Source of the DNA: Cyanophora paradoxa CCMP329 | Taxonomy: Eukaryota > Plantae > Glaucophyta | Assembly: GCA_004431415.1 (NCBI GenBank) | Contig: QPMI01000010.1 | Coordinates: forward strand, 1-64,000 | Direction: 5' to 3' | Length of the DNA stretch: 64,000 bases | Part shown: in pieces, positions 1-58,513 of the stretch | Layout: each line of letters begins with the position of its first letter | Numbering within the stretch: the stretch's first letter is position 1 | Notes under the pieces: generated by a model | What the model saw: only the letters and a program-made list of their open reading frames with translations | The model's database searches: none | What the model was told of the DNA's origin: nothing | Made by a program: the position numbers and the translations under genes

Positions 1-3000
1 GGCGGAGGGGGTACGCTCGTGCGATCCTTGGTACAACAACGGGAATCTTCGGCGCGGCCTGATTGCAGGCGGTGCAAAGTACTACAGGGATCGGAAGGCG
101 TACGAAAGGGACATTGCAGAGCTGCAGAAAGATAACAAAACGATCGTTTACTCAGACGAGCAGGTGAGAATACTGGCAGAGGAGCTGAAGACAAGGGAGC
201 GGCAATTTAACGAAATGAGGACAGCGGCCGAGAAAAAGATAGCGGACGATTTTGAAAGAGGCGAGCGATAGAATTGAGAAATCCCTGGAGGCCGAGGAGA
301 AAGCCGAGATCCGGAAGAGAGAGGCCGATAGGATCGTGGAAAACGCGATAAGGGAGGCAAAGGAGCAGGCAAGGACCGAGCTGGAGAAACTGGACATGGA
401 AATAGCAAACAAGGTCAACATAGCAAACGAGGTCGAAGAGGGCACAAAGATGCTGGACGATGAGCGAAAGGCAGCGGAGGAGCAAGCCAGAAAAGCAAAG
501 GAGGATTTAAGGCAGCTCGAACTGCGAGAACAGGAGAGGCAGAAGGCAGAGGGGCTCGCATCCACCATACGATTCAACCTAGAGCAGCAAGTGAAAACGC
601 TGACGGCCGAGCTGCAGAGGATAGGGACGGCTGTGCCAAGGGGCACAATGGAGACGCAGACGACGCCAAGGCCCGATCCAAGGCCGGCCGCCGAGAGGCT
701 GCCCTTCGCGCGGCTGGGTAGGAGCGACCAGGTGGAAGAGCTCATTGGCCTCACGCTCGAGGATCAGAGGGCCCTCTTCGACGCGTTAGAGCAGCGGCGC
801 AGGGCGGACGAGGAGGCAGCTGCCAAGACAGAAGAGGAACGACTGAAGGCAATGCAAACTGCATCAGACGAGGAATTTGCACGGCTGGAGGAGCCGAAGG
901 TAGCGGAGCGTAAGCGACGACTGGAGACGTTCAGGGGGGCGCAGATGGATTTTTACCGCTCGGAGCTCAAAAGACTGAAAGAAGGAAATGCATCGGGGGA
1001 CAGGCTCCGCGCCATGGAAGAGAACATGCGCGACTTTAGCTACGTTATGGATCAGCTGACGGGAAGGGGTCAGAAAGACGCCGAAGAACTGAGGAGAAAG
1101 ATGGCCGATGAGAAGTGGAAAAACTTTGAGCGTCAGGCTGTTCAGAGGCCCATCAGCGATGCCATCTGGATAGCATACGGCGACGTGGAGGAGATGCACA
1201 GAGAACTGCGGACGGAAGCGAGCCTGTGGCGGGGAGCCCTCGAATGGTCACTGTACCGGATACAAAAGGGGGAGTTTTTGGCAGAGCTGCGAGCCAATCC
1301 GAAAACGGTGAGCGCGGGCGCACAGAGCGCGTACCTCTCCATGGTCGATTACGTGGGCAAGCTGAGCAAATTTTGGGAAATGCGAAGAGCCATCATTCCA
1401 GCGGAGGGGCTCGCGCAGTACGATGCCATGGTGCGCGATCTGGAGGCCTTCAAACGTGAGCACCCACCCGCCAAATACAAGATTCACATAGATACGACGG
1501 CATTCATGGGCGATCTAAGGAAGAGAGGAGACGAGGCCAAGAGTCAGATCGAGGAGCGCTACAGAAAGGCCCAAGCGGACAAGGAGTACGCAAACAGGGT
1601 GATCGAAGAGCGGAAGCAGCAAGCCAAGGAGAACGCGGCGAGACGCAACGCCGAGATAGAAGAGCAGAGGCGGAAGATCGCAGAGCGCAAGGCGGCAGAG
1701 GAAGAGGCAAGAAAGACCAAGGTAGAGACAGAGTACCAAGCATTGAAACGGGAGGCCAATCAACTGTTAAAAAGGAGGGGAAGGGCCTACGCCGACGAGG
1801 GCGCGGGCGTGGGCTCGGCCAGCCCGGACGACATCACCCTCGCGGAAAGGGACGACGTTTCCGTAGAGGAAATGCGCCCGGGCACGGCTCGCCTGCCCTC
1901 CGAGGGCGTATTTCAGACGCTCGACAGGCGCGTGATGGGCGACTCGGACGTTATTCTGCGCAACGCCCTCATGCCCTACGGCGACTGGAACCGCGCCACC
2001 GCCGACGCCCTTGCCGATTTCGACCTCGAGCGATTCACCACCAAAGAGCAGCGCGACGCCTTCCTGGGGCGCCCGAGGGCAAGGCGGCCCGGGGTGGCCA
2101 AGGAGGCCCTCAGCGCGAGACAACGACGGCATGTCTTTCGGGGCAGCCGATTTATTTCAGGGGGCGGCATCGACTTGGTGGGCGCCGGGCTCGGGGGTAC
2201 GGGCTCGCGGCCATGCGGCGGGCGGGCGCGGCGGCGGCGGGCCTTGGCTGGCGACGGCCGGCGGCCTGCTCTCGGCTACCAGGCGCTCTCGCAGGGCAAG
2301 ATAGGGGAGGCCGAGTTCTTCGATACGTTCCGCGATCAGATGATCATGACGGTCGGCTCCTTTGGCCTTCAGACGGGCATGTCGTCCGCCCTGAGCGCCC
2401 TCACGAAAATGAGGATCGGCACGGTGGGCGACTTGGCCTGTCCATCCTCGCGGGCGCCATCGCGCAGGTGATCGTGGATATCATCAACGGCGCAGCGCGG
2501 AAGAAATCGTGAAGAATTTTTCAAGTACCCCGTCGACTGGGCGACCGACACCATACAGTTCATCGCGGAGCTCTCGCAACAGATCTACGACTGGGGCGTC
2601 GAGACGTGGGGCGACGAGGCGAGCCAGCTGCGCAACCGAATTAATCGGCTGGAGGGCGAGCTGGGCTCCGGATTTTTGGGTGTGTACGACCCTCGGAGGC
2701 GCGCGAAATGGCCTCGCTCTTGGCCCAGGAGCTGCGGTTTAAACGAAATCAAGGAGCCGAAGGAGCTGCAGGCCTTCATTCGCGCGCTCGACAACAGCAT
2801 CAACGATTACCGTACCCCAAGGACCAGAAGACCCTGCTCGAAATCGATCGCTGCGACCGTGCTCTTCCTCTCCAGCTCACCGTTAAAATGCAGGAGGGCT
2901 TCGGGTCGACTTCGCTCGCCCTGAGTCGACTTATGCGCGACCTGAAGCAGATGATAAAGGAGGAGACCAAGGGGCGGAAGCGCGTCTTAATTGCCGTCTA

Positions 3001-4126
3001 CCAGGAGGGCCTCAACAGGATCAATCACATCGAAGCCCTAAGGCGCGAATTCGCTCGGCCATCCGTCACTCGGGCGTCTCGTCGAACGGAGGGGCGCAGG
3101 TGGCCCGCCTGGCGGACGCCAACTCGCGCCTCGAGATTCCCGGGACCTTCCGCATGCAGGATTGGTGGGAGGCCGAGGCCTTCAGGAATTACGGGGCCTT
3201 CATAGACAACGGGATCAATTCGCAGAGCCCCAAGGCAAACTGGCTGGTACCAAGGCCTACGTCGATAAATTGGTTGACAGGCTGCAGCACCATACACCAA
3301 GAAGATCGCCAAAGGCATCGAGTACTGGGCGCCCGAGCCAGGCCAGCCGTGTTTGCATCGCAGAACTACGAGTGGCACATGGCGCGGGGGCGAGCCAGGC
3401 CGTGAGCACCGTGGGCGTTGCCGTGCCGCAGCTGGCGACGGTGGCACACACGGGGGCGTATGCAGATCTCAGCGGGAGGCCGACGATACCCGTGATACCA
3501 ACAACGTGGGCGTGGGATAGCATCACGGGAAGCCGAGTACGTATCCCACGCAGACCACCAGCACACCATCTCTCAGATCAGCGACTGGACGGCCCCGGAC
3601 TTGACGAACATCTCCGTGATTGGGACAACGTAACGGGCAAGCCACTTACCTTCCCCCCTCTACACACAGTCACAATGTGTACTGGGATAATGTCATCGAC
3701 CGACCCACTTCCTTCCCACCTCTACGCACAGTCACACAGAGTACTCGCTCACCAGCCACGGCACAGAAACGTGAACATGGATGCGTACATAACGCACGGC
3801 ACGTCTTCCACTCCTACGCTGCGTACACGGAGTTTAACATCAATTCAACATACACGGTGACGTTCAACATTACATTCGGACAGGCGTACGACACTGGAGG
3901 CGGACTGGGGACCCCAGCAAACCAACGCCGGTTATTAACGTACCCCCTCGTTCGACATCAATCCCGGCGGCAGCACGGATGTCGATTTCTACGGGCCAAC
4001 GTCACGGCGGTGAGTCACACTGGCTTTACAGTTAAAGTGAGATTCCAACCCAGAATGACGGTCACGCCCACCCAAATTGTCCAGCTTTTTATTCATTGGA
4101 CCGCGATCGGCAAGCTGCTTATGTAA
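1..4126 (+). CDS. Giant coiled-coil protein ending in fibre-like repeats and a lectin/gp53-like C-terminal domain (frameshifted, 5' end outside the window)
   Basis: E/K/R/A-rich helical ORF 252-2471, with coding-like sequence continuing upstream and downstream across frameshifts. The joined 3' part reads LATVAHTGAYADLSGRP / WDSITG(K)P / WDNVTGKPLTFPP-THSH / WDNVIDRPTSFPP-THSH (phage tail-fibre-type repeats), then TVTFNITFGQAY...NVTAVSHTGFTVKV...IHWTAIGK. It may be more than one gene. Confidence 0.65.
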
Positions 4127-4150
4127 TCGATTTTCTGATGCAATCCAAAA

Positions 4151-5207
4151 ATGTCGGTCGCTGTCCTCTATTTACCTATGCTGCCAGCGTGAATCACAAG
4201 GGCGATCACACGATTAAGGAGACCACCCTCGGAAACCAGGCCACCGAGGCCCCTACAACGCCACGGCCGTCCCCTTTTCCGAGGCCGACCTCGTCCGCGT
4301 CGGCGAGCTGCGCTGCGACAAGATGCGCACGCGGGAGGCGGGTCGCCGTGCCGGGGCGCGTGAGGACGCAGAGGCTCACCGTCACGAACGGGGCCTGGGA
4401 CGGGAGCGGTACACCACGAATCAGGTGACCTTTAATGGGACTGTGAACGGGGAGGGGAATGCGGCTCTGTATGTGCAAGGAGGCGGAGCAAACGTGGTGG
4501 GGGGGCTTAGGGTGAGCGGGGCTTCAACTTGGCGGGCATCGTTACATTGGACGATAAGCTGCAAATTACCGGAACGTCACCGTACATAAATGGCGGTGGT
4601 TCAGCGTAGCTATAAAGTACAACGAAAACGATAGACTCCTCTGTGGGACTCTTGGCGTTGGTGTTACAGTACTCTATTTACCTCGGCAATCGAAGGCCCT
4701 ACTAATGGCCTAAGCATAGCAAACACTTCAATCGTTGATAGCGGAAGCGTCAGCGTCAGCTCTGGTCTATCCTTGAGAAACAACGGCACCGAACGACTGC
4801 TGTGCGGAACCGTCGGCGTTGGCATCACGGGTCGGCTCATCGTCTCGACGCTCACGGGCGATGGAAACCGAGCCGTTTATTCGGATGCTCAAGGATACCT
4901 GACAAACTCGTCGAGCGATAGCCGCCTGAAAGAAAATGTCGCGAGCATGTCGGCATTCTCCCTCTTCTGCTGCAGCTGAATCCCGTGTCGTTCACCTGGA
5001 AGAACACATCCTCGGGGGTTCGAAAACGGATTACGGTCTCATCGCACAGGAAGTCCAAGGCGTCTTCCCGAGTCTCGTTTTCGAGAACGCGGATGGATTT
5101 CTCGGGGTAAACTACGACAGGCTCATTTCCTGTCGTTGAAGGCAATTCAGGAACTTTCACAAGAAGTTCAAACTCTCAAAGACCAGGTAGCGGCACTGGC
5201 GAGCTGA
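4151..5207 (+). CDS. Fibre/spike protein with C-terminal intramolecular chaperone (Peptidase S74), frameshifted
   Basis: Joined frames give NSSSDSRLKENV...LNPVSFTWK...DYGLIAQEVQGVFPSLV...LGVNYDRLI...AIQELSQEVQTLKDQVAALAS*, the S74 signature followed by a coiled coil. Confidence 0.85.
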
Positions 5208-5227
5208 TCTGGAACAACTAGGAATAA

Positions 5228-7231
5228 CTACACCGCGAGTATCACAATTCGACCGTTGCCACCGTCGCTGAAAGACGAGCCACCGTTGCCGCCCCTACCA
5301 ATGCCTGCTGCGTAGTGAGCGTCTCCGCTATTTCCTGCCACCTGGCCGGACCCAGGATACACCGTAGCATCCGTCAAGTTTCCTATGTAGCTCGAGCCAC
5401 CGCCACCTCCAAACATTCTTGCTATTGGGTTCTCTGACACTCCGCTCCTGCTGGACCCAGAGCCTCCACCGAAGTAACCACCACCACCACCACCACCGAA
5501 CTGTAGCCGCTTGAATCAGGCCCAGTCTCTCCACCTTGGCGCAAAGTTCCCGGGTTGCTGGGCCTGGCCCTGAGGCCACAACACCGGCTCCGCCAGCGGT
5601 TTGGGTGCCTCCTTGAGCCGGTATCTCTCCGGTTACTCCAACCAACCCAGCCGCACCACCGTCAACCCCCCGCCTACTCCCCGCCGCCATTCGAATCACA
5701 TGTACCCCACCTCCGCCCTGCAACAACCAAGTCGGTCCCTGCAACGCGCTGAATTGCAGAACGACCACCACCGGCGCCGTTTTTGTACTCCGGATCGACG
5801 CTATGGCTCCAGCCCCTTCCACCACCTCCGTAGACGGTAGCAGTGGCAGTCCCCGATACACCCTTTGGGCCGCCGCATCCAACAACAAGGATGAGCGTCT
5901 CCCCCGAGGACACAGCCAATGTACCAACTACGCAAGCACCCGCGCCTCCACGGACCCCGTACCTGCGCGTTCTCCGCCTCACCCCCGGCCGCCCATACGA
6001 TGACACGCACAGCCACAGTCCCCGTTGGTACTACGAAAGTCTGGTCGGCCCCGGTGTAGGAGAATGTACCGAAAAGGGGCTGCTCGTGTCGCTGGCAAGG
6101 AACACGCCACCCCTGTAGATGTTGTAGGAGACGGTGACGCCCGTCACCGGCACCGACCACTCGAGCACAACAGGCTGTGCTGCCCCCGCCGCGGGGGTTG
6201 CAGTGAGCCCAGTGGGCGCCCCCGGGTCCGTGGTGACGTACGCCGCAATACTCTTCGGCCCTCCCTCCCGTGTTCGTCGCGGAGATCTGGTACTCGTACC
6301 CTGTACCCCAGACGGTGGTCGTGTCGCTGTAGGAGTTGGTCGCGGAGTCTGTGAGGTAGGCCCCGTCTCTGTAAATCTTGTATCCCGTCGCTCCCGTGGA
6401 CGCAGTCCAGCTGAGGCTGACAGGCTGCTGCTGGTCGTTGGGTGCTGATGCCGTCACGTTCGTGGGGCGTTTGGCATAGTCCAGACCAGGAGCGGATCGG
6501 ACTTGTCGTATTCGACACCGCCCACGATGCCGGCCACCTGGTAAGAGTATTCCGTGCCCCACGTAAGAGCAGTGCTATCGTCAATGTACGAGGTAGACAG
6601 GGCACTGCTCGCAAATCCGATTGCGTACCGTTCCTGTAAATTCGAATCGAGTCCGCGCCCTCCATGGCCACCCAGTTGATTGTGACGACTATGGCGGGTT
6701 TCGGGAAGCCCGAAGACGCGGGCCGCCCCCGGCAATAAAATCGCCGTAGGTCTGGGCCGTGGCGGTCGTGAGCGTGGTGTAGGCTTCGATCTGCGGGCTG
6801 AAGCCGCCTATGCCTTGGAAGAGAATGTAATTGCTCATGGCACCCTCGTGGGTGTAGAGAAGCGACTGTGCGTAGGTTGTGGGCGGGGCTTTGCCATCAG
6901 AGCCCGTGCTGCTGCTGCCCTGTTCGCGAACCGCCGCCACGCGGTAGAGTCGCTGGGCCCCAAACTAAAGGAGAGTCCGTGTAGGTGACGGTTGGCGCAT
7001 TCACCGTGGCCACGAGATCCAGGGGCCGTTGATGCTGGTCGCCCTGTACACCTTGTACTTGACGGCGTTGGTGACCGCGACCCAGTTCAGCTGAAAGCCG
7101 TACGTACTGTTCCCGTTGTTGAGCACGGAGCCCGATCGCACCTGGGGCCTGCCCACAGTCAGCGAGATCGGCTCCACGCCATACTGCGGAGCCTGCACCA
7201 CCTGCTTTTTCACGAATACGAAGCGGGGCAT
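5228..7231 (-). CDS. Fibronectin type III repeat plus glycine-rich domain protein (putative virion surface protein), frameshifted
   Basis: FN3-like segments (LNWVAVTNAVKYKVYR; VSLSWTASTGATGYKIYRDG...YSDTT...YEYQISATN), then TFSYTGADQTFVVP...VIVWAAGG...GGAGACVVGTLAVSSGETLILVVGCGG...GGGGSSYIG...GGNGRIVI*. Confidence 0.75.
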
Positions 7232-7267
7232 TTCCTCTACGATCCGAAAAAATATCTGCCCGGGTAA

Positions 7268-7940
7268 ATGACTTCCAACTGGTACCAGACCCTCAGCGGC
7301 TCACTTGACGTTGGCAACAACACCAAGGATTTCGCACGCATACCCTCCGGCAGTTACGTCGACGTCTTTCTGCAGAATCCCGTCGTGATTCAGGTCGTTC
7401 AGAACGCCTACGCCACGCCAAGATTTATTCCTACCAGCTCTTCTTCGACCCTCTGAGCCTCAGCGCAGAGGTTATCGAGCTGCTGCACGAATCAGGACTC
7501 GTGAAAAGGTGCACCTGCCACGGCCACTGCCAACGTCTTGCGCTGTCTCGAGGTCAAGTTCAGGGAGACGGGTACGGCCCACCGTGAACGGTACCCCAGT
7601 TCTTCGAATCTTCCGGGTACGGGAACTTACCAGATGAGGGGTACGCTCAAGGGCGACGTGCTCTTCACGAAATTCAATCCAAGTCCCGCGACCCTGGGGC
7701 CCTCTACACGGGCGGCAACCCACGCGGCTCGACTCTACCCCGCTTCCCCTTCACCTTTTTCAGGTTCCAGGTCTTCCCCCTCTCCTACGCCGCCGACCAG
7801 CCCCACTTCAGCACGGGCGCCAGCCTCTGCGCGGAGCTGCGTGAGTGCTCGATTTCCTACGCGTACGGCACCGACGCTGACTCTGTGCCTGGGCCCGCGT
7901 CATGAACATCGGTGGCGACATCACCCTCTTTCACGGATAA
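7268..7940 (+). CDS. Unknown protein, paralog A of a tandem pair (candidate virion structural protein), frameshifted
   Basis: Starts MTSNWYQTLSGSLD, 36 bp from the divergent gene. Shares ordered motifs with the next gene: LQNPVVIQV, ELLHESGLVKR, LRCLEVKF, VLFTKF. Confidence 0.6.
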
Positions 7941-7963
7941 TCTTTCTCATTTGAGGTCGCAAA

Positions 7964-8793
7964 ATGCCGACCACCTCGGCCACCATCGTGAAGACCGTGT
8001 CTGCCGGCTCGATCGTCCCGATTTCTACGGCAACGCTGGGAACGTGGCCAACGCAGGGACGGACAAGGTGGAGTGGGACGGAAACTACGCCACCCCGCTC
8101 ACCGTGAGGGTCCAGAATCCCGTCATGTTGCGCGTCACCTCCAACGATTTCGAGAATCCCGCCTCCTGCTCCGTGTACGTGTACTTTGACATCGACTCGG
8201 GCGTGAGCGCGGATGAGGCGGAGGCGCTCTGGCTCTCGGGCCTCCTGAAAAAGATAGAGCCCTCTGTGCCTGATCGGCCCGCCATTCGCGTGCTCGAACT
8301 CAAGTTCACCGCTAACACCGCCCTCACTCGCAAATTCGGGAATGGTGCGAATCCGAACATCAAAACGCATTTAGATGGCGCCCTCATCGATGCCACACAC
8401 AAGACCACGCAGGCCGTTCCCTTTGAGATGTACAACCTCTGGAAGATGACCGCAAAGGAGATGATGACGAATGCCACCACGGGCGGCGCCTCGGGTACCG
8501 ATTATTCATACGGCGCCTCGAATCCCCGTACCCAGGTCTGGCCCCGGCTCCTCTTCACGAAATTCACTTTCAAATTGTACAACAACATCGCCGGAATGCC
8601 TACCTCTGGAATGGTCGTGGGCTCTACCCTCATGGCCGAACTAATTGAGGCAGAGGCGGACTACACGACTGCGACTACCAACTCGACAGCGCCAGGCGCC
8701 GGAGCCGAAGTTTACGTGGCCTGGAAACGGTCGGTCGCGAGTACGACACCAAGATTCACACCACTAGCGTCTAGACTGGCTAAGCTGCATTAG
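7964..8793 (+). CDS. Unknown beta-rich protein of ~275 aa, paralog B (candidate capsid or other structural protein)
   Basis: ATG at 7964 (MPTTSATIVKTVSAGS) joins ORF 7912-8793 via one frameshift. Motifs VQNPVMLRV, EALWLSGLLKK, IRVLELKF and LLFTKF match paralog A. The structural role is inferred from gene context only. Confidence 0.65.
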
Positions 8794-9126
8794 CACCTGT
8801 GTCGCCTCCATCATCTCCCGAATCTCCTCGCTCTTCTCCTGTAAATTGGCGTACCCCTCCTCTTCTTGCGAATCTCCGACATTGATGCCCAGCGCAGGTT
8901 CTCCCTCCTGTAGTCCAGCGGTTGCCGTTGATGTGTTCCACGTAGCGTCCACGTGGCGACTTCCCGAGGATCAGCTGGGAGAGGTAGTGCTTGCGCCCTC
9001 CAAACGTCTTGCTCACCCTGTCCCTGTCCACTCTCCAGGGAAACTCCAAGGCACTCGGGGTACGTCCGAGTTGACCAGGACGTTGTAGGCGACGTCTTGC
9101 GAGTCGGTGCACCGGAGCAGGGCCAT
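8780..9126 (-). CDS. HNH (HNH_3-type) endonuclease, frameshifted
   Basis: Joined frames give YLSQLILGKSPRGRYVEHINGN(P)LDYRRENLRW, matching the H-x-NG-x-x-x-D-x-R-x-x-NLR motif of viral HNH nucleases. Confidence 0.75.
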
Positions 9127-9150
9127 TTTGCCCTAGGTTCAGAAAAACCT

Positions 9151-9230
9151 GGGACTTGGGACTTGGGACTTGGGACTTGGGACTTGGGACTTGGGACTTG
9201 GGACTTGGGACTTGGGACTTGGGACTTGGG
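9151..9230 (+). repeat. (GGGACTT)11 telomere-like / G-quadruplex array, copy 1
   Basis: 11 perfect heptamers plus GGG, followed by AAGAGTTGAAACCCAGGTCCCGG. Confidence 0.97.
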
Positions 9231-9312
9231 AAGAGTTGAAACCCAGGTCCCGGCCCAGACTTTCTCCAGGATCAGAAATTTGTCAGACAAGTCAGGTGAG
9301 TTTTTCTACCGA

Positions 9313-9388
9313 CTTTTTTACTCCTACCACTCCTCATACTCTTTTTTACTCGTAGTCTTTTTACTCGTAGTCTTTTTTACTCGTATCC
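9313..9388 (+). repeat. 16-bp iteron-like tandem repeat CTTTTTTACTCGTAGT (three copies plus one degenerate)
   Basis: Copies at 9341, 9357 and 9373 (the third differs at its last two bases), with a variant at 9313. Confidence 0.9.
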
Positions 9389-9671
9389 CATCTCGTACCC
9401 TCCTTCTCTCGACATCTCACACGAAAACTCCTACCCCTCTTCACATCCGTTTTCGGTTGCATACTCTCGTGAGCTTTCATGTCCAGTATCATGCTACAAG
9501 TCGTACACCAGTTCAGACTCTACCTCGCTTGAAATCTCACCTGGAATGTCACCAGAAACGTCATATGCAGATTTCCGTACCCCTCTACATGTCTGCCCGG
9601 TGGTTAGGGACTTGGCGCGGCAAACTCTCAGATCCAGAGAGATTCTGGCCCAGACCCTGAGTCTAACTCTT

Positions 9672-9722
9672 CCCAAGTCCCAAGTCCCAAGTCCCAAGTC
9701 CCAAGTCCCAAGTCCAAGTCCC
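9672..9722 (-). repeat. (GGGACTT)~7 array, copy 2, inverted relative to copy 1
   Basis: AAGTCCC repeats on the + strand, one unit 1 bp short. The minus strand continues GGGAAGAGTTAGACTCAGGGTCTGG. Confidence 0.95.
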
Positions 9723-9792
9723 AGGATCGCGCCAAGTCGTAACTGAATAGTCGGCCAATTTTTACAAGTATGTACAATGGAATGACGCAATA

Positions 9793-10859
9793 CTATTTAC
9801 AGCATCTCAAAGTCAGAGTCATCGTCATCGGAAACCAACTCAATGAGGCCCTCGGGCGCCGACTTAAGGGAATGCGGGGAAGGGACTGCGCTGCCTGCAC
9901 CAAGTCCTGCCGCTCGCGCTCGCGCTGCGCCGCCAAGGCCGCTGCCGCCTCTGCCTCGCGCTGCTGCTGAGCCTCGATGCGCGCCTTGAGCTCGGCCGCC
10001 TCCTTCTGCTTGCGCTCGGCGATCCGCGCCTTGTTGATCTGGTACTGGACAAGGCGCTCGTGGCGCCGCTTGCGCTCCAACTCCTTGCGGAGCTCGTTGC
10101 AGAGGACGCGCTTCTCAATGGTCTTGACGTGCTGAGTCAGGCGCTCGCTGTAGTGTGACGTCACGCGAGAACGGGCAATGCCGGCGCCGAGCTTCAAGTC
10201 CTTCTCGTGTGCCTTGGCGGGGTCCTTGACGCGCTCGGAGTTGTCGGTGAATGACGTAGTCTCCATGAACTTCTTCTTGACGATTGACTTGGTCTTGATA
10301 ATGCGGCGCTTGCGAGTCGGGTTTTCGTTGTCGCCTTCAGAGTCAGAAGACGACTCAGAGTCGTATGGAATCGGCACGTCAAAGTCGATGAAGTCGTTGA
10401 TGTCAGACTCGACGTCAGAGGCCTCGGACTTGGCGTCATCGGCGGGCTCGGGGCGGGCTCGGCGACGGGCTGAGGGGCAGATGACGACGATGACGGAGGG
10501 GGTAATTCGTGAAGACTTGAGGGGGTAGGCCCAGGCGAGCGTCTCGGCAGCAGACTCGGCGAAAAGCTTGGGGTCGCCCAGCCGTTGGCGGTCTTGACCC
10601 AGCCGGGGACGGGGGGCACGTCGACGGGGGGCTCGGGCTTGGGTTGCTTGGACTTGGATTTCTTGGCCTTGGACGTGAAGGCGGACTTGGGGAGAAGTTG
10701 CACTTCGGGCCAGTGGCGCGTAAGATGGCATAATTGTAGATGTACCCAGAGCGTCGGCGCGCTGCTCCATCTCAGGGGTAGCCCTTGAGTGCCACCGGAG
10801 TTAGCCCACGTTGCTTGGACAAAGGCGAAGTCCTCGGCAAGCTCAGCGGGAATCGACAT
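9793..10859 (-). CDS. Unknown viral-region protein with acidic tract and coiled coil (frameshifted)
   Basis: ORF 10194-10859 (MSIPAELAEDF...) and ORF 9793-10770 (acidic DVESDINDFIDFD tract, basic patch RKRRIIK, coiled coil) appear to be one gene. Confidence 0.6.
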
Positions 10860-11174
10860 CTGCGCAAAGGGAAAGAAATCAGCAAAGGCAAAACGTGAGG
10901 TGACTGTGAGGGCGGACTTGTGAAAATTCGGAGAGGCGGGTTTCCTTGGCTGAGAGAAGGCGGCGAACCCGTTTCAAGAGTGAGCCAAAATGGCGGCGGA
11001 CCGCGGTTTTGTGGGCGATTTTTTTCGCGGTCTAGTTCGCAACGGAAAACGTTGCCAACTGGCCTGAAAAAAGCCAAATTTAGCGTTGGACCGAAGGCAG
11101 AAAAAGGGAGCCGGCCTGACGGAAATCGCCCGAGTGCGTCCGCCGAAGGTCGAGTCTCGGGCCGGGGTACACCC

Positions 11175-11663
11175 TCAGGGCCCCCCCTGGCCCTCACCCT
11201 GGTAGTGCCCTCTCAAAGGATTTTCGAAGCCGTACAATTCTTGGTAAGTCTCGTAATCCGGGCTGTACCCCCTCACAATCTGCGGGAGCCCCATTGAAAG
11301 CCTCCGTCTATCCTCTCTCAATTCCCTGCGGAAAAGTCTACGGTCTTCTCGAGCTTCGCGTGTCACGCCAGCTGGGCGTGGTCTATGATTGTTAGGGTTG
11401 TCGTAGCCTGGTCCCACCAGCCTCACGAAATTTTCGCGTATGGCCTCGGGGAGGCTCTGGAAACGGCTCGTCGCGTGGAACTCAATCCATTCATTGAATC
11501 GACGCGGATATTGACGGATGACTTCAAGCACGCCCTGTGTGTTGGGCTCTGGTGTTACGTCGGGGATGTCATGTCCCGTGAGGTGCCAACGCCAGAACTC
11601 GCGCAACCTCTCGAATGCCATATTCAACTCAAAGGGAAAATCGTAATAGAGATTGCCTGACAT
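11175..11663 (-). CDS. Unknown 162-aa protein
   Basis: Intact ORF from ATG 11663 (MSGNLYYDFPFELNMAFERLREFW...), with normal protein composition, just downstream of array 3. Confidence 0.6.
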   Translation of the reverse strand: MSGNLYYDFPFELNMAFERLREFWRWHLTGHDIPDVTPEPNTQGVLEVIRQYPRRFNEWIEFHATSRFQSLPEAIRENFVRLVGPGYDNPNNHRPRPAGVTREAREDRRLFRRELREDRRRLSMGLPQIVRGYSPDYETYQELYGFENPLRGHYQGEGQGGP

Positions 11664-11721
11664 TTTTCTCCCCGTCCGAAAATTTCCCCGCTTTTGGGTC
11701 CAGACTCTGATTCCAACTCTT

Positions 11722-11773
11722 CCCAAGTCCCAAGTCCCAAGTCCCAAGTCCCAAGTCCCAAGTCCCAAGTCCC
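11722..11773 (-). repeat. (GGGACTT)7 array, copy 3
   Basis: Seven AAGTCCC units on the + strand. The minus strand continues GGGAAGAGTTGGAATCAGAGTCTGG. Confidence 0.97.
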
Positions 11774-11907
11774 AGGTCACATTTTTCTCCCATTTTGACT
11801 CGAGATTCTGACCAAGTCCAAATCCGGGCCCGGGATTCGAACCCTCGTTTTCGGTCGATTTCACGCGTGAAAACGGCACTTTTCGGCCTTTTCCGATTTT
11901 TCCTTTC

Positions 11908-12018
11908 TCGCGATCGCAGAAATGCCCCCGATCTCGAAATCGCGATCGAAAAGGGTCGCGATCGGGAGAAAGTCGCGATCACCAGGGTCGCGATCGGGTC
12001 GCGATCGCCGCGATCGCC
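11908..12018. repeat. Cluster of TCGCGATCG-type motifs near the putative element end
   Basis: About seven (T)CGCGATC(G) copies in ~110 bp. Confidence 0.8.
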
Positions 12019-12554
12019 AGCCTCGGAGGGGGTACCCCCACAGCTGTTGCGGCGGTTATAAGAACCTCCGCAATCCAAGCGTCACTTCCGAGTCTCGAGC
12101 TCTCGGAGTTGACTTTTCGCGTTTGGCCCATTGATGGCCCTCGTATATAGTACTGCAGCTGCCGCAGTACTAGTGCACTGCGGCGGCCGCCGGCCGCGGG
12201 CAGCGCGCGCACGTGCACGCCGTGACGCGCAGACTCTGAGACTTGAGATCTAGACGCCGAGTCGTCGCCGACACTGTGACAGACTCTGAGACTTGCGCAT
12301 GCGTATGCTGTACATGAACATGTGTCGCCGAGCTCGAGTTCGGCCCGCGCCGGCGGCCGCCAGCGCCGGCGGCCGGCCCCGGCGGCCCGTCATCGAATTC
12401 GAATTAATATTCGAAGGGGTACGTACGTATACAGCGCAGCCGGCGCGGGTATACGTAATCGTAGCCCTCGGATCAAATTTGGCGAGCTGCTTCTATGCGT
12501 AGCGAAGGATGCGGCACGTAGCACTTAGCTAGCAGCTTTGGACAGCCCCCGAAG

Positions 12555-15500
12555 ATGGCGGACTTCGATCCAGAACTCGGCCCGACATACAAGCTGGTGC
12601 TTGGGCCGCTTATCTTCGTGCTCACGTGGTGCGAGGCGAGGCTGACGCTCGCTGGACTCGCCGCGCGGCGCCCGCGCCGCCTGGGCACCCGCGCGAAGAG
12701 CGACGTGGCTCGCACGCCGCACCCGCTCCCCCTGACCTCTCCGGCGCCAGGCTCCTCATCACGGCGAACAGAGTGCCGTTTCTGCCCATCGGAAGACCAG
12801 CCGGGGCCCTGCTGGGTGCGCCCTGCGGTATGCGCGGTTCACGCGCGCGGCTCGAGCTCCCCTGAGGGAAGCGCGGCGCCGTTCCGTCGGCAGGCGCGCT
12901 GCTCATGGTCGTCTGCACGATCATATCCGTCGAAGAAGCGTACGCGGCGGTCGACGGGTGCGCACACCGCCTTAGGATGCCCTCGCCGTTCTCCATCCAT
13001 CTCCGCTGCCGACGCCGGCGACGCCGCCGCGCCGCGACCGCGCCCGCAGGAACACTATCGCTCTGCTCTTCGGAATGATGGCGCGCAAAAGCAGCAGCAC
13101 CAGAAGCCCCCCGCTTTCTCCCCGCCTTCGCCCCATCGAATTCGAATTCGAATCCGAATTCGATCGCAGGTGATCACGGCGCGGCTGGAGAAGGAGGGTC
13201 TCTTCGACTACTTAGCACACCACATGCTCCGCGGCTGTTCGAACGGGTGGACGCTCCTGTGGCGCATCTCCCTCGCCGCCGCCTTCCTTGGTACCCCCCC
13301 GCAGCCGCCCATGTACCCCTTCCCTCACGGCCCCCTCAGCCGCCTTCCTCACCAACGACACCGTAAGCGCGTCTGCGTGTACCCCCCTCCCCTCGCGCCC
13401 CGCCGACCGGTACCCGGAACCAGACTTGTGTCTTCATGACCGCTATGGTGGTTGCGGGTACCCCCCTCCCACTCCCCCTCCGCTGCCCGGCCCGCTCCGC
13501 CTGACCTACCTCCCTCGGTTTGCTCGCACCCCCCGCAGCCTGCAAAATGGCCAAGGTTCTTCCTAGTAGGACGATGCCGTACCCCGGCTCCTGCCTGAGG
13601 GTACCCCCGCAGGTCCCCATGGGCCCTTTCCTCATCTGCCTCGCTACCTCCGCCAACATCGGATCCGCCTGCACGGTCCGCGCGCTGCGTACCCCCCGCG
13701 CCCTTCTCCCCCTGACCCCCCCGTCCGCAGCCCACCGGCAATCCCCAGAACATGTCCGCCCGCCCGCCCGCCTCGCCCCCCGACCCGAATCCGCGTACCC
13801 CCGATCGATTCAATCCCCCCGTTTCCCCGCCCAGGATCATCCATTCCTTCTCTAAACTTCCCTTTCTCGGATTCGTATCCCGGATCGGCCTCGCTACCCT
13901 CCTCGGCCTCTCCGTCCGCGTGCCCCTGACCGCGGATTTGATGAACCCCGCGCCGATTCGCCCCCTCCCCCCCCAGGTCAACCTCGGTGTCCTTTTCCTC
14001 ACCTACCGGTACCCCCCCTCCCCTCCCCCCCCTTCCTCTCTTCTCCTGAGCTTCGAGGCCGGCAGGGAGGTGCTTTTGAGGCCCTTCGCCGCCGGGGTAC
14101 GTGAGCTTTTTTCGGGGGGGGAGGGGGGGGGGTTACACCCACGGCCGCTCTCGGGTCCGCCTCGATTATCGGTCGCGCAGCCGGGGGGCGGCCACGGGGA
14201 GCCCCGGCGCGGGCGCGGCGGCAAGCTGCTCGACGAGGCGCGTACCCCCTCCCTGTTCGTAGAACCGTACCCCCTAAACGACAGCGCAGAACGGAATGTT
14301 TGAGTATCGGACGCACGGAACGGAGTCTGGAGCCGGGGCGGCGGCGGCGGCGGCGGGCGGGGTAGAGGGTACCCCCCGCATCGACGTCGAGGCCCCGGAG
14401 GGGGTCGCGGGGCCGGCAGGGCCCCCGGGGGGTAGGGGCGCCGAGCTGGAGGAGAGGTGGGGCGGGGGCCTCGCCCCGCCGGCCTTGCCCGCCCCCTCAG
14501 CCTCGCCGGCGGGCACGCCTGTACCCCCCGCGCTCTCGACCCTCGAGCTGCTGCGCGCCACGCCGCGGCCCGTCCTCCTGCGCCGCTTCGCCATCGTCCT
14601 CGTGCGCCGTACCCCTCTCTTTCTCATTCCCCCCGTTCAAGCTCCGGGGGGACGCCAGATCATCCTGGGGGTAGTGATTGCGTTCCTGGCTGGCGCGCAC
14701 CTCTCGTGGACCGCCATCGCGGGGGGTACGCGCGCCCTTCCCGGCCTGTACCCCCCCTTTGGCCTGAGCTCCCGTACCCCCAGCTTGGGCCCTCATCGTC
14801 CTGGATTTTCGGGACCCCGCCCCCCTCTTCGAGCTCGTGGACTGGCCCGTACCCCCCTCCTCATCCGCCCTCCCCCGAACATCTCTTACCCGCCCACAGG
14901 TCCCTTCTCATGTTCTTCTGCGGACTCTTTATCGTCGTGCGCACCCATACCCCCTCCCCCGCTCCCCCCCTCCCCCCGCCAACTTAGCTCTGGGTACAGG
15001 TTCGCGGCTTCAGCGCGACGGGTATCCCCGTAGCCCTCTGGGACGACCTCCTACCCCTCGTCTCCCTCAGGTCCGCTTCGTACCCCCTTCTAGTGCCTCC
15101 GATAATTCTGTACACCCGCAGCACCGCGCGGGGCCTTTTCGTCTATACCCTCATCCTCCTCGTGGTCCGAAGAGTCTACCTTCGCCTCGTTCCTTCGCAC
15201 CGTACCCCCCAGCCTCACCTCCGCTTTCACTTTCGACGCAGGCGTCGAATGTCGTATCGAACGTCCCGACGGTCCTCATCGTAGCACCCCTCATGTCCTC
15301 CTTCCAGGCGCCTCCGTACCCCCCTACCCCTCGATTCTTCCCCTGTACCCCCCTCGTGCTCACTTCGCTTCCCTCCCCGCAGGCGTACGCCACGCGCGGG
15401 TGGTACCAGATGGCGTTCATCACGGTACCCGGCGGCGCCCCGGCTTGGCTCGGCCGGCTCTAGACTCACCTGTACCCCGCCGTAGACGGTCGCCGGGAAC

Positions 15501-15837
15501 TTTACTCTAATCGGTGCGGCGAGGCGCCTCCCCGGGGGGAGAGGGGGGGGGGGGGGGGAGTGCCTCCGCCGCAAGCCGTCCTCGCGCCCGCCCGCACCCG
15601 TACCCCCGTCTCACTTGCACTTACCCCCCTGCAGGCTCCGTGGCGAACATCATCGTCGCCCAGCGCGCCAAGGACCACTACGTCCTGGGCTTCTGGTGCC
15701 CCCGTACCCCCTTCTCCCTTCCCCTACCCCCCCCCCTAACTCCCCCCCCTCCCCGAAGGGAGTACCTGCGTGTGGGGCTCCCCTCGACGGCCCTCGCGCT
15801 GCTCCTCGGCGTCCTGGCCATCTCCCTCGTCACGTAG
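12555..15837 (+). CDS. ArsB/NhaD (CitMHS) family permease, Lsi2 silicon-efflux-transporter-like; multi-exon
   Basis: Exons encode VPFLPIGRPAGALLG, EEAYAAVD, LLFGMM, AFLTNDT, PFLICLATSANIGSACT, LLMFFCGLFIVV, RGFSATGIPVALWD, SNVVSNVPTVL, TVAGNFTLIG-SVANIIV and YLRVGLPST, colinear with plant Lsi2. Confidence 0.9.
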
Positions 15838-16529
15838 TACCCCCTTCTCCATCTCCCCTTGGGGTTGTACCCACACGCGCGCACGTTAATCGATGTAAAC
15901 GATACGAAATTATCGATTAATGGAATACCCCGGCCGGCGCCGCGGGCGCCGGGGCCCTCTGGACCGCCGCGGAGCTCGCGGCGCGGGGCGTCCTTGCAAT
16001 CGCATTCTCCCTGGTTGCGTAGGGCCCGGCGCGGCGTCGACCGAGAGCATGTTCTCGTCCTCTTTGGTTGCATGCGGCGCGCACCGCGCCTCACTGAGTC
16101 ACGCGCGCGACGGCTGCGACCGGTGCCAAGCGCTAGCGCAGGAGCACCGGTGCCGTCACTTCGCCCCCTCCACTTCTAGCCTACGTATACCTCTTATATA
16201 GCTAGCTCTTCTATTCTGGCCTCTTCTTCTATCCTACCTAGCTCGAGAACAGCTCGCGCGCCTGGCCAGCCCCGGAGACGGCTCGACGTCGACCAAAAGC
16301 ATGTTCTCGTCCTCACATCTCAAGGGCGCGGGGCGCGGCGCCGTATACGTAAACTTGAAATGCACATGGGCGCCGGGTTAAGCTTTATTCTTAAAGATTC
16401 AGTCGTATATATAATAAACCCAGGATCAGCTTTGATCAGCTCTCGAATCAACGAGCCCTGCTGCAGCGCTAGCTTTGGTCAGCCGCTGAGCCTGCAGCTT
16501 TCGCCGAGTCGACGTCGAATTCCGAGTAC

Positions 16530-22543: not shown

Positions 22544-22635
22544 CCAACTTAGCTCTGGGTACAGGTGCGCGGCTTCAGCGCGACAGGTATCCCCGTAGCC
22601 CTCTGGGACGACCTCCTACCCCTCGTCTCCCTTAG
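22544..22635 (+). repeat. Copy of an acceptor-plus-exon fragment of the Lsi2-like gene (source 14979-15070)
   Basis: 92 bp with three mismatches. Confidence 0.9.
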
Positions 22636-26693: not shown

Positions 26694-29600
26694 TCAGCTA
26701 CAAGCAAGTCGAGGAGCCGCCGCGCCATGATGGCTGCCAAAATTGCCCATACCGACCGCCGTACCTGCTTCACAATCGTTTGGATAAGGCGGCACGTGGT
26801 CTCGCGAAGCGCGCGAATCTTGGCGCTGATCTCGTACTTGTCGGCCGCGGGCGCCGGCATCGTCGGAGGCGGCGATGAGGCGGCCATTTGCACGGCCAGC
26901 GGCGCGGGCGGCGCGGGCCCCTCGGGCGCCTGCCAGCCCCTCTCCTCCGCCTGCGTCAGGCAGTTGAGCTTGGCCCAGCGGCGCAGTGCAGGCCGGGCCC
27001 AGGGAATAGGCCCGGAGGGAGGGCGGCCGCGCGCGCACCGCCGCCGCGAGCGAAGCCTCGAGGGATTTGATCCGATCCCTCAGCACGGTCTTCTCGGGGT
27101 CCGACACATCGGTCTCGGGTGGTGCCCGCCGGCCCCTTTCCACCTGCAGCTGCGTAAGCCGACCGTTATCTTCAGCTTCCATCCTGACAGAGGGTTTGAG
27201 GCAATCTATCTCTTTGATCTCAAGGGAGACGACGCACCGCCACCGCAAGTGAAGCCTCCAGCGATCGGATCCGCTCCCTCAGCGCGGTCTTCTCGGGGTC
27301 CGGTTCTGATGGGTCTACAATCGGCCGCCATGTGCACCCGGCGTTCGCTTCGCTGCTTCCATTGATCTGCAATGAGGTAATTATAAGATCACTGCAGATC
27401 GCGCGGCAGCGAACACGTTTCAGATTCATAGGATTGCACTGAATCATATTTTAGGAGCGCATAACAGATTCTCATTTAGAGGAGCGTAATATTCGAGCAC
27501 GAATGCGATGAAGAGCGCCTGCGGAGGGACCAGACGGGCGCGCCTCACTGATGTCGCTTCTCTGCTCTGCCCGCGCGATGCGACTCCCGCTCGCGAGCTC
27601 CAGATCCAGAGAAGATCCAGAAGTAGCGGGGGCAACATGCGGCGGCTCCGGTTGCCTGTGCTCCTCGTGCCGCTGCCGTGCCGGCGCGTGGGGTGGGCCT
27701 CCCCATGCAGCTGCTGCGACAGACGAGCTGCTTGCCGATGCGCAAGCGGCGGAGGATCCGGAGCTGCGTTCTGCCGCGCTGGACGAGCTCGCGATCGGCG
27801 TCGCGCCAGGCCTAGGCGATGCAAGAACAGCGCTTGCAGTCGATGGCTGGGCGGAGACCATGGTAGGAGTAGCAGCGGCAGCTTGCTGGCTTTGTTGTTC
27901 TTGCTGTGATCGGTGTTCTTGTCTGCAAGGCGATGCAAGAACAGCGCTTGCAGGCGATGGCTGGGCGGAGACCATGGTAGGAGTAGCAGCGGCAGCTTGC
28001 TGGCTTTGTTGTTCTTGCTGTGATCGGTGTTCTTGTCTGCAAGGCGATGCAAGAACAGCGCTTGCAGTCGATGGCTGGGCGGAGACCATGGTAGGAGTAG
28101 CAGCGGCAGCTTGCAATTGCTGGCTTTGTTGTTCTTGCTGTTGTTGCTGCGCCTGCTGCGCCTGCCGTACATGTGCTTCCTGGTGCTGCTGCTGCTGCTG
28201 CAGCTGCCGCGCCTGCAGCTGCTTAAGCTTGCGTTGCTGCTTTTGCAAGGCAATAGCTGACTTCACGAGCCGGCGACAGACCTGCGGGAATTCGAACTTC
28301 AGCAGAAATTTTACGGATCAGATCTAGAATAGATATATAAAACTGACTGACGAGCAAGTGCAAGTTATTCAAGACACGCAAAGCAGGGACACGAGTTGGA
28401 GAGTACGGAGTTTCGATGACCAGAATCTGAGAACGAAACTCTTAGACGCAATATACAAAGACAAATCTGAGAACGATCGCGACTAAGAAAAACAGCACGT
28501 ACAAATTGTTGCAGCTGCTGAAGAACCTTTTTCGTCTTATGCAAACTACGTGTTTGTGGCCGTTCTGCGGCATCTGCCGTCTGTTGCATGAGTTGTTCTT
28601 GCATCCAGCGCAATTTCGGAACTTCGAGCTTCATCTCCTGGAGCTGAGACTGTGTTGGAGCAGTCTGCATGCTGGCAATGAAAATGCATGCATATGCGCA
28701 CTTTGGCGAGGCTTGCTTGGATCTCTTCCTCTGTAGTGGCTACTTGCGCACCGGGCTCGGCTTGCTTGGCGCCGGCTTGTTCGCGAGGTTGTGATTGCTG
28801 AGGAGACGCGAAGTTCAGCGATAAGTTGGAGTCAGCGATCGAGACATGTACACATGATCTCGGCCGGGGGCCTAGGCGTGCAAACTCGCCCCTGCGGTAC
28901 CGGTTGAGGGTGCGGTTGAGGGTCCCGCGGCCGGTTGAGGCATGCTCAAGCTTGTGCTCGCTTCTGCCGGGCGCGTTTCGACGCCCAAAAGTCAAGTCAA
29001 CTCAACGAAGCCAGGCGATATCAAGTCGACGTCAAGCGAACAAGAAATCGCGAGCGGGATCGCAAACCATGGCCAGGCTTGCTCTTGGCTTGCTCTCGTC
29101 GCTCCTGCTCTCGCTCTCGTCGCTCCTGCGGCTAGCGATCGGCAAAGATCAGCCCAGACGGTTCAGCGGAAGGTTGCAATTGAATGCTACGCATGCGCAC
29201 CTCGAGACGTGGCCCTGTCGCCGTCGTTTCGGCTTTCGCTTCCACTTTAGATGCATATGCGGGTGCGCTCGAGCTTGACCCTGACCCTGCGTCGACATGG
29301 ACGGCCGCGGGAGCTGCGACGAGTTCGACCGCCGAGTCAGCAGAAGCGTCATGAAGGCACAGGCCATAGCCAGGCGACCGCGAACCCCTTGTGAGCTGCT
29401 GGAACATCCGCCGTAGTTCCGGGTTGATCTTCAGGAGCTTGATGCAGAAGCCCTGACGCTGCTCCGGGTTTAGGGCCAAGAACTTGGTCTTGTACTCCGG
29501 GCTGAGTTTCTTGAAGACGAGCTGGTCCAGCGACGAGAACTGAATTCCTGAGCCTACTGGTTGCACGCCGAGTCAGCACATTGTTAAATTAAAGCGATCG

Positions 29601-57800: not shown

Positions 57801-58513
57801 TAGATTACGCTGCAAAGCGTGATCAGTTTCTCTCCGCCGGAGCGCGCTGCCGGGGCCGCGCCCTTACCTCCGGGGTACAGCCTGCGCACGGCCGCCCACA
57901 GTACCCCCACTTTCTTTTCGGCTTCGCGTTAGTTGCAGCTTCGCGGAGCTGCAGCCATCGCCAGCATCACAGACGTAGCTAGTGGAGTTGGGTGAACGAA
58001 TGGCGTTCCACTGGCCTGTCGACGGTGCGTGATCGCAAGAGCGTGCGGTTGGGGGCGCGCGGGGCCGCCTTTGGCAATCCAGCTCCCGCGCCTCGCCTGC
58101 GCTCAGCGCCGCGCACTGCTGACTGGCGCAGCTAGTTAGCGCCAGCCAGCTGCAGCCTTTCCGAACAAGCTTTCCATAGGCGCCTAGTTAGGCAACCATC
58201 CCTTCCTTTAAACCTTCCGAATAGCTTCATAGGCACTTCCCTTAACACATTAGCGTCACAGCGCCTGAGATTACTCGGCGCTCGCCGCGCGGCTGGTGCC
58301 CGGCGTAGTTAGCTTAGACAGGTAGCTCTCCGTAGTTGTTCTTGTCTGAATCTCGTAGTACCTTCAAGGTTTATCGTGTGTCGCGTCGCATCCCACACTC
58401 GCACGCCTGAGCTCGCTCGGCGCTCCGCCGCGTGGCTTGGCCCGGCGTCGCACTTCCGTAGAGTAGCTCGCGGCGGGCTAGACGGGCTGCACGCACATAA
58501 GAGCGTCACGCAT

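What the first reader, a model, noticed from the sequence alone, without database searches (positions are those of the whole stretch)
1..12130. Unclassified endogenous DNA virus with phage-like fibre genes integrated in a protist genome
Seen: a compact intronless block with a >1300-codon coiled-coil/fibre gene, an S74-chaperone fibre, an FN3/Gly-rich protein, a paralogous beta-rich pair, an HNH nuclease and orphan genes, directly abutting intron-rich host genes. Known: S74 fibres, Gly-rich domains and HNH nucleases occur in Polinton-like viruses, virophages and phages. Inference: this is an integrated virus. I recognise no double-jelly-roll capsid, pPolB or A32 ATPase in the visible part, and the combination of tape-measure-like coil, paralog pair and telomere-like arrays does not fit a family I know, so it may be a new lineage.
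Basis: partly seen in the sequence, partly recalled or inferred. Interest (0 to 1): 0.85.

Follow-up and report, generated by a model that had tools for sequence, protein, structure and literature searches.

The report
Multi-copy orphan provirus in glaucophyte alga
This is one end of a gene-dense element present in dozens of near-identical copies in the genome of the alga Cyanophora paradoxa, likely an integrated Polinton-like virus whose predicted attachment fibres and likely capsid-vertex proteins have almost no relatives elsewhere, though its main capsid gene, if it has one, would lie outside the window.

Summary
1-12.15 kb is the right end of a compact element (58% GC against 66%) joined to host DNA. 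Its genes recur, in the same order, on at least 56 contigs labelled Cyanophora paradoxa. In 4 of 4 runs a single-copy-depth contig starts at 12120, and terminal contigs are 35-79 times deeper. So it is integrated and multi-copy, not a contaminant; the end lies at 12143-12149. The frameshifts are indel-only against intact copies, likely assembly errors. S74, FN3 and Gly-rich domains are supported; HNH and H-lectin weakly. The 226/270-aa paralogues remain unassigned: language-model features point to jelly-roll virion proteins, while low-confidence AlphaFold models point to T7-type SSBs. Capsid, ATPase and integrase could not be tested: they would lie left of the window. PLVs are already published for this species (366 MCP genes; S74, HNH and PTR-H-lectin fibres), so the likeliest reading is an undescribed orphan-rich PLV subfamily (about 0.6). 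An unknown capsid type is not excluded.

The parts
1..4126 (+). 3' ~80% of a ~1680-aa gene: charged coiled coil, a hydrophobic helix region, three W..TGKP-type tail-repeat-like units and a C-terminal H-type-lectin-like domain; predicted fibre or DNA-delivery protein
   Evidence: intact copy P0056: 1343 residues match in exact 6-mers with ~31 frame switches; H_lectin E 0.045-0.067; repeats and hydropathy; Pfam PTR not detected
4138..5207 (+). fibre protein with a C-terminal S74 chaperone domain (frameshifted; start uncertain)
   Evidence: PF13884 E 3.9e-4; PHROG tail fibres E 4e-10 to 1e-3
5228..7231 (-). FN3-repeat plus ALK/LTK glycine-rich protein (frameshifted); predicted virion-surface protein
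   Evidence: fn3 E 0.0045, PF12810 E 4.5e-6; PHROG hits
7268..7940 (+). 226-aa beta-rich paralogue 1; likely single jelly-roll virion protein (fold not established)
   Evidence: intact copies P0063, P0065-P0068; 4 frame switches; paralogy
7964..8774 (+). 270-aa beta-rich paralogue 2; likely single jelly-roll virion protein (fold not established)
   Evidence: P0019 matches 270 of 270 residues with 2 frame switches; Atlas features of homologue P0008; rival SSB fold
8783..9126 (-). likely HNH_3 homing endonuclease (frameshifted)
   Evidence: HNH_3 E 0.055; phage HNH hits E 0.08-2
9150..9231 (+). 7-bp tandem array, 11.7 copies, followed by a ~25-nt motif shared with the other two arrays
9671..9723 (-). 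same 7-bp array, 7.7 copies, inverted; faces the first array across a 391-nt pyrimidine-rich spacer
   Evidence: also read through in gene model P0024 of another copy
9797..10859 (-). 356-aa orphan: variable N-terminus, Pro/Ser-rich and acidic middle, basic coiled-coil C-terminus
   Evidence: P0078 matches 356 of 356 residues with 8 frame switches; 29 clusters, all EukProt; no Pfam family for P0078 at E 0.1
11175..11663 (-). 162-aa orphan ORF
   Evidence: open frame; no Pfam, PHROG or NCBIfam family; homologues not searched
11721..11778 (-). third 7-bp array, 8.3 copies, upstream of the 162-aa ORF
11790..12149 (.). multi-copy right terminus of the element, with repeated CGCGATCG motifs; last element base between 12143 and 12149, in a TA-rich run
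   Evidence: multi-copy contigs reach 12142 and the single-copy contig begins at 12120 in 4 of 4 runs; depth ratios 35-79
12556..15900 (+). flanking host gene in many short exons, likely an ArsB/CitMHS-type transporter (end approximate; not part of the element)
   Evidence: CitMHS E 6e-4 on one exon; single-copy depth over the laid part to 14200

Best explanation
The stretch is the right-hand 12.1 kb of an element integrated in dozens of copies in the Cyanophora paradoxa genome, likely a Polinton-like virus whose double-jelly-roll capsid, packaging ATPase and integrase genes would lie left of the window. Shown: multi-copy status, conserved gene order, a sharp end fused to unique host DNA, intact copies of four genes elsewhere, and S74/FN3/Gly-rich domains. 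Inferred mechanism: the provirus is held silent (viral genes are methylated in this species, PMC12344493) and on induction builds an icosahedral particle. The 226- and 270-aa paralogues would serve as vertex or minor capsid jelly-rolls. The S74 domain would trimerise its fibre and cleave itself off. The 1680-aa protein would act as a long fibre or DNA-delivery protein with a glycan-binding tip, so that the particle enters cells on its own and re-integrates at TA-rich sites. The HNH gene is likely a passenger. The 7-bp arrays are likely binding sites for a replication or transcription protein.
For: Genes recur on 56 distinct EukProt contig names. The pair shares a contig with the giant gene on 10 of them and with the 356-aa gene on 17, at gene numbers 1-5 apart. 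Junction and depth. GC drop. Indel-only differences from intact copies. The pair has a virion-like composition (charged residues 16-17% against 34% in 18 T7-type SSBs and 14% in 54 Bbp16 homologues) and no acidic tail. Atlas features of homologue P0008: best score 0.94 with 204 of 256 features shared; 24 of 30 named hits are clusters in which 21-37% of members (the two shown) carry Bbp16, a jelly-roll capsid cement (PMC3863775 passages). Same host in print: 366 MCP genes in clusters of 272 and 94. Of 156 glaucophyte PLVs, A32 ATPase is in 139, HNH_3 in 40 and S74 in 37 (columns mapped by me). One has a PTR-PTR-H_lectin fibre.
Against: No capsid, ATPase, polymerase or integrase is seen in the visible part, and none could be linked to it. 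None of the 6 contigs given for example MCPs in PMC10120064 Table S2 is among my 56 contig names. My list is incomplete, but this is modest evidence against membership of the two published clusters. The published table gives counts, not co-occurrence, and only 1 PLV had the PTR-H_lectin fibre although this family has dozens of copies. Both AlphaFold models (pLDDT 36 and 32) rank T7 gp2.5-type SSBs first, not jelly-rolls (DUF2815 Z 6.7, rmsd 4.8, 128 aligned; gp2.5 Z 5.8; Enc34 Z 5.8; ASFV CP312R Z 5.0; Z 4.2). HHalign against Bbp16 gave probability under 1.
Confidence: 0.6

Rival explanations
1. An endogenous virus of an undescribed kind with no recognisable double-jelly-roll capsid. In the boldest form the two adjacent paralogues are themselves the major capsid proteins, two vertical single jelly-rolls as in Halopanivirales (SH1 VP7/VP4, P23-77 VP16/VP17).
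For: Adjacent small-then-large paralogues of 226 and 270 aa, like SH1 (185, 232 aa) and P23-77 (173, 291 aa). Jelly-roll-type Atlas features. No overlap with the 6 published MCP example contigs. Only 8 hits among 1.84 billion representatives, all Cyanophora.
Against: HHalign against four Halopanivirales MCPs gave probability 0.35 or less (a shallow profile). The host already has hundreds of DJR-MCP elements with the same accessory domains. The left part is simply unseen.
Confidence: 0.2
2. A PLV-like element as in the best explanation, but the pair are T7 gp2.5-type single-stranded-DNA-binding proteins of the replication module.
For: The top four VIA rows for the 270-aa model are all T7-type SSBs, including ASFV CP312R. 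The Foldseek best hit is a phage SSB at E 5.9e-4. The 226-aa model has the same top family.
Against: The models are of very low confidence and share their alignment rows, so they are not independent; Z under 8 is within the tool's background. Acidic residues in the last 25: 3-4 against 13-15 in T7 and Enc34; half the charge content. HHalign probability under 1. Atlas features point elsewhere.
Confidence: 0.1
3. A capsid-less transposon, or a fragment of a giant-virus insertion, that carries fibre genes as cargo.
For: No capsid gene seen; giant-virus insertions are reported in this species (PMC12344493 passages).
Against: Three predicted fibre or surface genes are kept in order across many copies (giant gene intact elsewhere; the other two not searched). 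The end is sharp and shared by dozens of copies. No giant-virus marker in the block.
Confidence: 0.08
4. A contaminant phage or a chimeric contig.
For: Phage-type fibre domains; no record bridges the junction by the tool's 31-letter rule.
Against: In 4 of 4 runs from 4 studies at most (one may be the source sample) the contig that carries the element's last bases runs 1079-1562 nt into host DNA with 0 differences. Copies sit on 56 host contigs. No relative in GTDB genomes, IMG/VR or phage records.
Confidence: 0.02

Closest known systems
Cyanophora paradoxa PLVs counted in PMC10120064 (Tables S2, S4) and PMC12220804 (Table S6, Fig. S6)
   Same: same host; tens to hundreds of copies; S74, HNH_3 and PTR-H_lectin fibre domains; the 94-MCP cluster (26% of 366) and the S74/HNH/D5 counts (24-26% of 156) are of the size of this family
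   Different: no MCP, ATPase or integrase linked here; 0 of 6 example MCP contigs among my 56; the gene pair, the 1680-aa coil-fibre fusion and the 7-bp arrays are not described in the passages and tables I saw
Gezel-14T/PgVV and cryptophyte PLVs with phage-like fibres (PMC12220804 section 13)
   Same: S74-chaperoned fibres and long multi-domain attachment proteins, read there as independent cell entry
   Different: no detectable sequence similarity was tested or found; no laminin, collagen, BppL or SLATT domains here
Bbp16 cement protein of phage BPP-1 (PF21190; PMC3863775)
   Same: language-model features of the 270-aa family score 0.90-0.94 against phage clusters, some carrying Bbp16; similar Ser/Thr/Ala/Gly-rich composition
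   Different: no Pfam or HHalign match; ours are 226-270 aa against 140; no HK97 capsid gene seen
Halopanivirales two-MCP capsids (SH1, P23-77)
   Same: two adjacent paralogous beta proteins, small then large
   Different: prokaryotic hosts; no profile similarity; fold of our pair not established

Membership tests
Polinton-like virus | [quoted passage not shown] | not testable with these tools
   none recognised in 1-12149; the element continues left of base 1 and no genome is held
Polinton-like virus | A32/FtsK packaging ATPase | not testable with these tools
   not in the visible part; left part unavailable
Polinton-like virus | [quoted passage not shown] | tested here: inconclusive
   Atlas features favour jelly-roll virion proteins; AlphaFold models too poor and point to an OB fold; no PLV penton sequences were obtainable for a profile test
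Polinton-like virus | integrase (rve or tyrosine recombinase) and target-site duplication | not testable with these tools
   only one end is in the window
Polinton-like virus | terminal inverted repeats | not testable with these tools
   no second copy of the end in the window; the left end is missing
Polinton-like virus | GC shift against the host and discrete integration | tested here: met
   0.585 against 0.661; sharp multi-copy to single-copy step at 12143-12149
Polinton-like virus | length 14-40 kb | tested here: inconclusive
   at least ~13.1 kb (12.15 kb plus ~1 kb of the giant gene); total unknown
Halopanivirales-like two-SJR capsid | two adjacent paralogous capsid genes | tested here: inconclusive
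   adjacency and paralogy shown; capsid role and fold not shown; HHalign probability 0.35 or less against 4 sequences
T7 gp2.5-type SSB (for the pair) | acidic C-terminal tail (feature recalled; measured on T7 and Enc34 here) | tested here: not met
   3-4 acidic residues in the last 25 against 13-15
T7 gp2.5-type SSB (for the pair) | OB fold | tested here: inconclusive
   Z 6.7, rmsd 4.8, 128 aligned, on a pLDDT-36 model
contaminant tailed phage | separate replicon, not joined to eukaryotic DNA | tested here: not met

The most novel reading that the evidence does not exclude
The element is a eukaryotic endogenous virus outside the double-jelly-roll PLVs, and its capsid is built from the two paralogous single jelly-rolls seen here, as in Halopanivirales: the first such virus in a eukaryote, intact and spreading in a glaucophyte genome.
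Probability: 0.1. Interest if true: 0.9.

Novelty: new variant of a known kind. Interest (0 to 1): 0.5.

Why it matters
Glaucophyte PLVs have been counted in surveys, but my seven literature searches found no gene-level description of them. This family has dozens of near-identical copies with intact genes in a culturable, axenically grown alga, so induction and virion purification are directly testable. Its three searched genes have essentially no relatives outside the host, which makes the twin beta proteins a clean test of how far capsid-vertex proteins diverge. If they are the major capsid, the range of two-jelly-roll capsids would extend to eukaryotes. The copies are also annotated as host genes (at least 56 contigs), often with likely false introns, which inflates the orphan-gene count of this alga.

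Tried and rejected
No whole genome is held, so the left part, empty sites and TIRs were not seen. Relatives with context: none in IMG/VR, JGI metagenomes, GTDB (133) or phage records. No PDB sequence match. AlphaFold2 failed twice (pLDDT 36, 32), and Foldseek on the second model gave nothing under E 0.05; no jelly-roll row appeared in the VIA lists, which excludes nothing. HHalign against gp2.5, Enc34-type SSB, Bbp16 and Halopanivirales profiles: all probability under 1. Complex prediction of the pair: no answer, score 0.00, alignments not used; it counts neither way. Five PLV and virophage accessions were not in the collections. A Bbp16 family search in one record was uninformative. Reads were laid only on 11790-14200, so the frameshifts were not checked against reads. 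The published MCP sequences seen in a supplement (38) were not used as queries, so the MCP-to-element link stays open. Four look-ups of earlier findings returned nothing. The arrays as telomeres: rejected, because they are internal, flanked by a conserved motif and present in another copy. The 9.15-11.78 kb part as a separate nested transposon: considered unlikely, because its 356-aa gene is syntenic with the pair on 17 contigs. PMC10120064 supplement 2 was cut when stored, its Dataset S1 gene maps are pictures, and per-element annotations of PMC12220804 were not in the held files; these may already place this family.
Full report
Observation. Bases 1-12.15 kb form a compact block (GC 0.585 against 0.661) of eight gene spans, with 8-36 nt between the first six. 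Six-frame translation shows most genes broken by frameshifts. Domain scans support an S74 chaperone fibre and an FN3 plus ALK/LTK glycine-rich protein, and weakly an H-type lectin tip on the giant gene (E 0.045-0.067) and an HNH_3 nuclease (E 0.055). Three arrays of one 7-bp unit lie at 9150-9231, 9671-9723 and 11721-11778, each followed by a related ~25-nt motif; 22 units fall in the block against 5 in the other 52 kb.

Host and copy number. The 270-aa gene has 14 homologue clusters: 12 EukProt, 1 ENA, 1 Logan. The named members are labelled Cyanophora paradoxa. The giant gene gave 10 long homologues and the 356-aa gene 29 clusters, all EukProt. Together the names cover 56 contigs: the pair and the giant gene share 10, the pair and the 356-aa gene 17, all three 4 (names tallied by hand). 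Gene numbers keep the window's order, for example tig00021108 g18353/18350/18349/18347. Against intact copies the window differs almost only by indels: 270 of 270 residues of P0019 with 2 frame switches, 356 of 356 of P0078 with 8, and 1343 residues of P0056 with about 31. I infer consensus errors in a collapsed repeat rather than decay; this was not checked on reads.

Junction. On 11790-14200, 4 of 4 runs give a contig at single-copy depth that begins at 12120 and follows the window for 1079-1562 nt without a difference; multi-copy contigs reach 12142. With 31-letter words the first unique base is 12150, so the element ends at 12143-12149, in a TA-rich run (inference). No record meets the tool's 31-letter bridging rule, and one run may be the source sample. 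Terminal contigs are 35-79 times deeper than the flank. The tool warns that depth is no copy number, but the figure agrees with the contig count.

Distribution. A profile of the 270-aa family found 8 proteins among 1.84 billion representatives, all Cyanophora. Nothing was found in IMG/VR, JGI, GTDB or phage records. Two unnamed relatives at 63-64% identity on 1.0 and 1.8 kb contigs (P0008, P0012) show some wider diversity, of unknown origin.

The paralogous pair. The 226- and 270-aa proteins align over their length (HHalign 97.9%). Their fold is unresolved. For jelly-roll virion proteins: Atlas features of P0008 score 0.94 (204 of 256 shared) to small viral hypothetical proteins, and 24 of 30 named hits are clusters partly annotated Bbp16 (21% and 37% of members in the two shown, one source). 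Bbp16 is a jelly-roll cement protein (PMC3863775, passages). The composition is Ser/Thr/Ala/Gly-rich with 16-17% charged residues, and the genes sit beside the fibre genes. A likeness to PLV penton motifs is my recollection and was not tested. For T7-type SSBs: both AlphaFold models (pLDDT 36 and 32) rank that family first (best Z 6.7, rmsd 4.8, 128 aligned). The models share alignment rows, sit within the tool's background, and the acidic tail is missing. All profile comparisons were negative.

Literature. PMC10120064 (parts 2-3 of the text, supplement rows) lists 366 MCP genes for this species in two clusters, with six example proteins; 'Cyanophora' does not occur in its main text. PMC12220804 (sections 9, 10, 13, 34, 42, Table S6 row) counts 156 glaucophyte PLVs. 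By my column mapping, A32 ATPase is in 139, minor capsid in 97, rve in 85, pPolB in 49, HNH_3 in 40, D5_N in 40, S74 in 37 and tyrosine recombinase in 0. It reports one PTR-PTR-H_lectin fibre. A subfamily of about a quarter with S74 and HNH would fit this element, but co-occurrence is not given. Against it, 0 of the 6 example MCP contigs are among my 56. PMC8502044 (passages) notes adintovirus-like proteins in this species. PMC12344493 (passages) reports methylated viral genes and giant-virus insertions. PMC6704402 (passages) has no occurrence of 'virus' or 'viral'. PMC11071308 (passages) gave nothing on SSBs.

Mechanism. Shown: integration, many copies, conserved order, intact genes elsewhere, fibre-type domains. 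Inferred: a methylation-silenced provirus that on induction builds a particle with S74-matured and lectin-tipped fibres on jelly-roll vertices, enters cells unaided, and re-integrates at TA-rich sites. The giant protein's charged coil (residues ~350-900) and hydrophobic helix (1126-1154) could serve as a shaft or in DNA delivery. The arrays, in inverted orientation around a pyrimidine-rich spacer, are likely protein-binding sites of an origin or promoter.

Verdict. A real, multi-copy endogenous virus-like element. It is most likely an undescribed, orphan-rich PLV subfamily in a host already known to carry PLVs (0.6). A new capsid lineage is open (0.2, of which about half is the two-single-jelly-roll case). 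Membership features that lie left of the window could not be tested. Interest 0.5.

Noticed in passing
P0042, P0045, P0050, P0060 (copies of the gene at window 1-4126): Copies are mosaics: two alternative coiled-coil segments, two versions of the hydrophobic region, and in P0042 a different C-terminal tip, which suggests recombination and receptor-tip swapping among copies.
   Followed up: partly
window 10860-10917 (-): A 58-nt GT..AG stretch with a pyrimidine tract ends directly at the ATG of the 356-aa gene; possibly a 5'-UTR intron in a viral gene.
   Followed up: no
window 9797-10859 family: The first 60-100 residues vary strongly between copies while the acidic and basic coil part is conserved.
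   Followed up: no
window 58313-64000 (+): A 1172-codon open frame with no Pfam hit, followed by a reverse-transcriptase frame (RVT_1 E 2.6e-9) that runs off the window; likely a retrotransposon.
   Followed up: no
window 35965-37284 (-), 47501-49731 (+), 52585-53298 (+): Host exons with Voltage_CLC, TPR and weak F-box-like hits.
   Followed up: no
window ~14978-15068 and ~22545-22630: A ~90-nt stretch occurs twice in the host part (seen by eye).
   Followed up: no
window 27814-28141: 114-bp tandem repeat, 2.8 copies, 96% matches.
   Followed up: no
EukProt models P0001, P0018, P0024, P0027: Gene models fuse the two paralogues or splice into an array, likely through false introns across frameshifts; such viral copies are filed as host genes.
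   Followed up: partly
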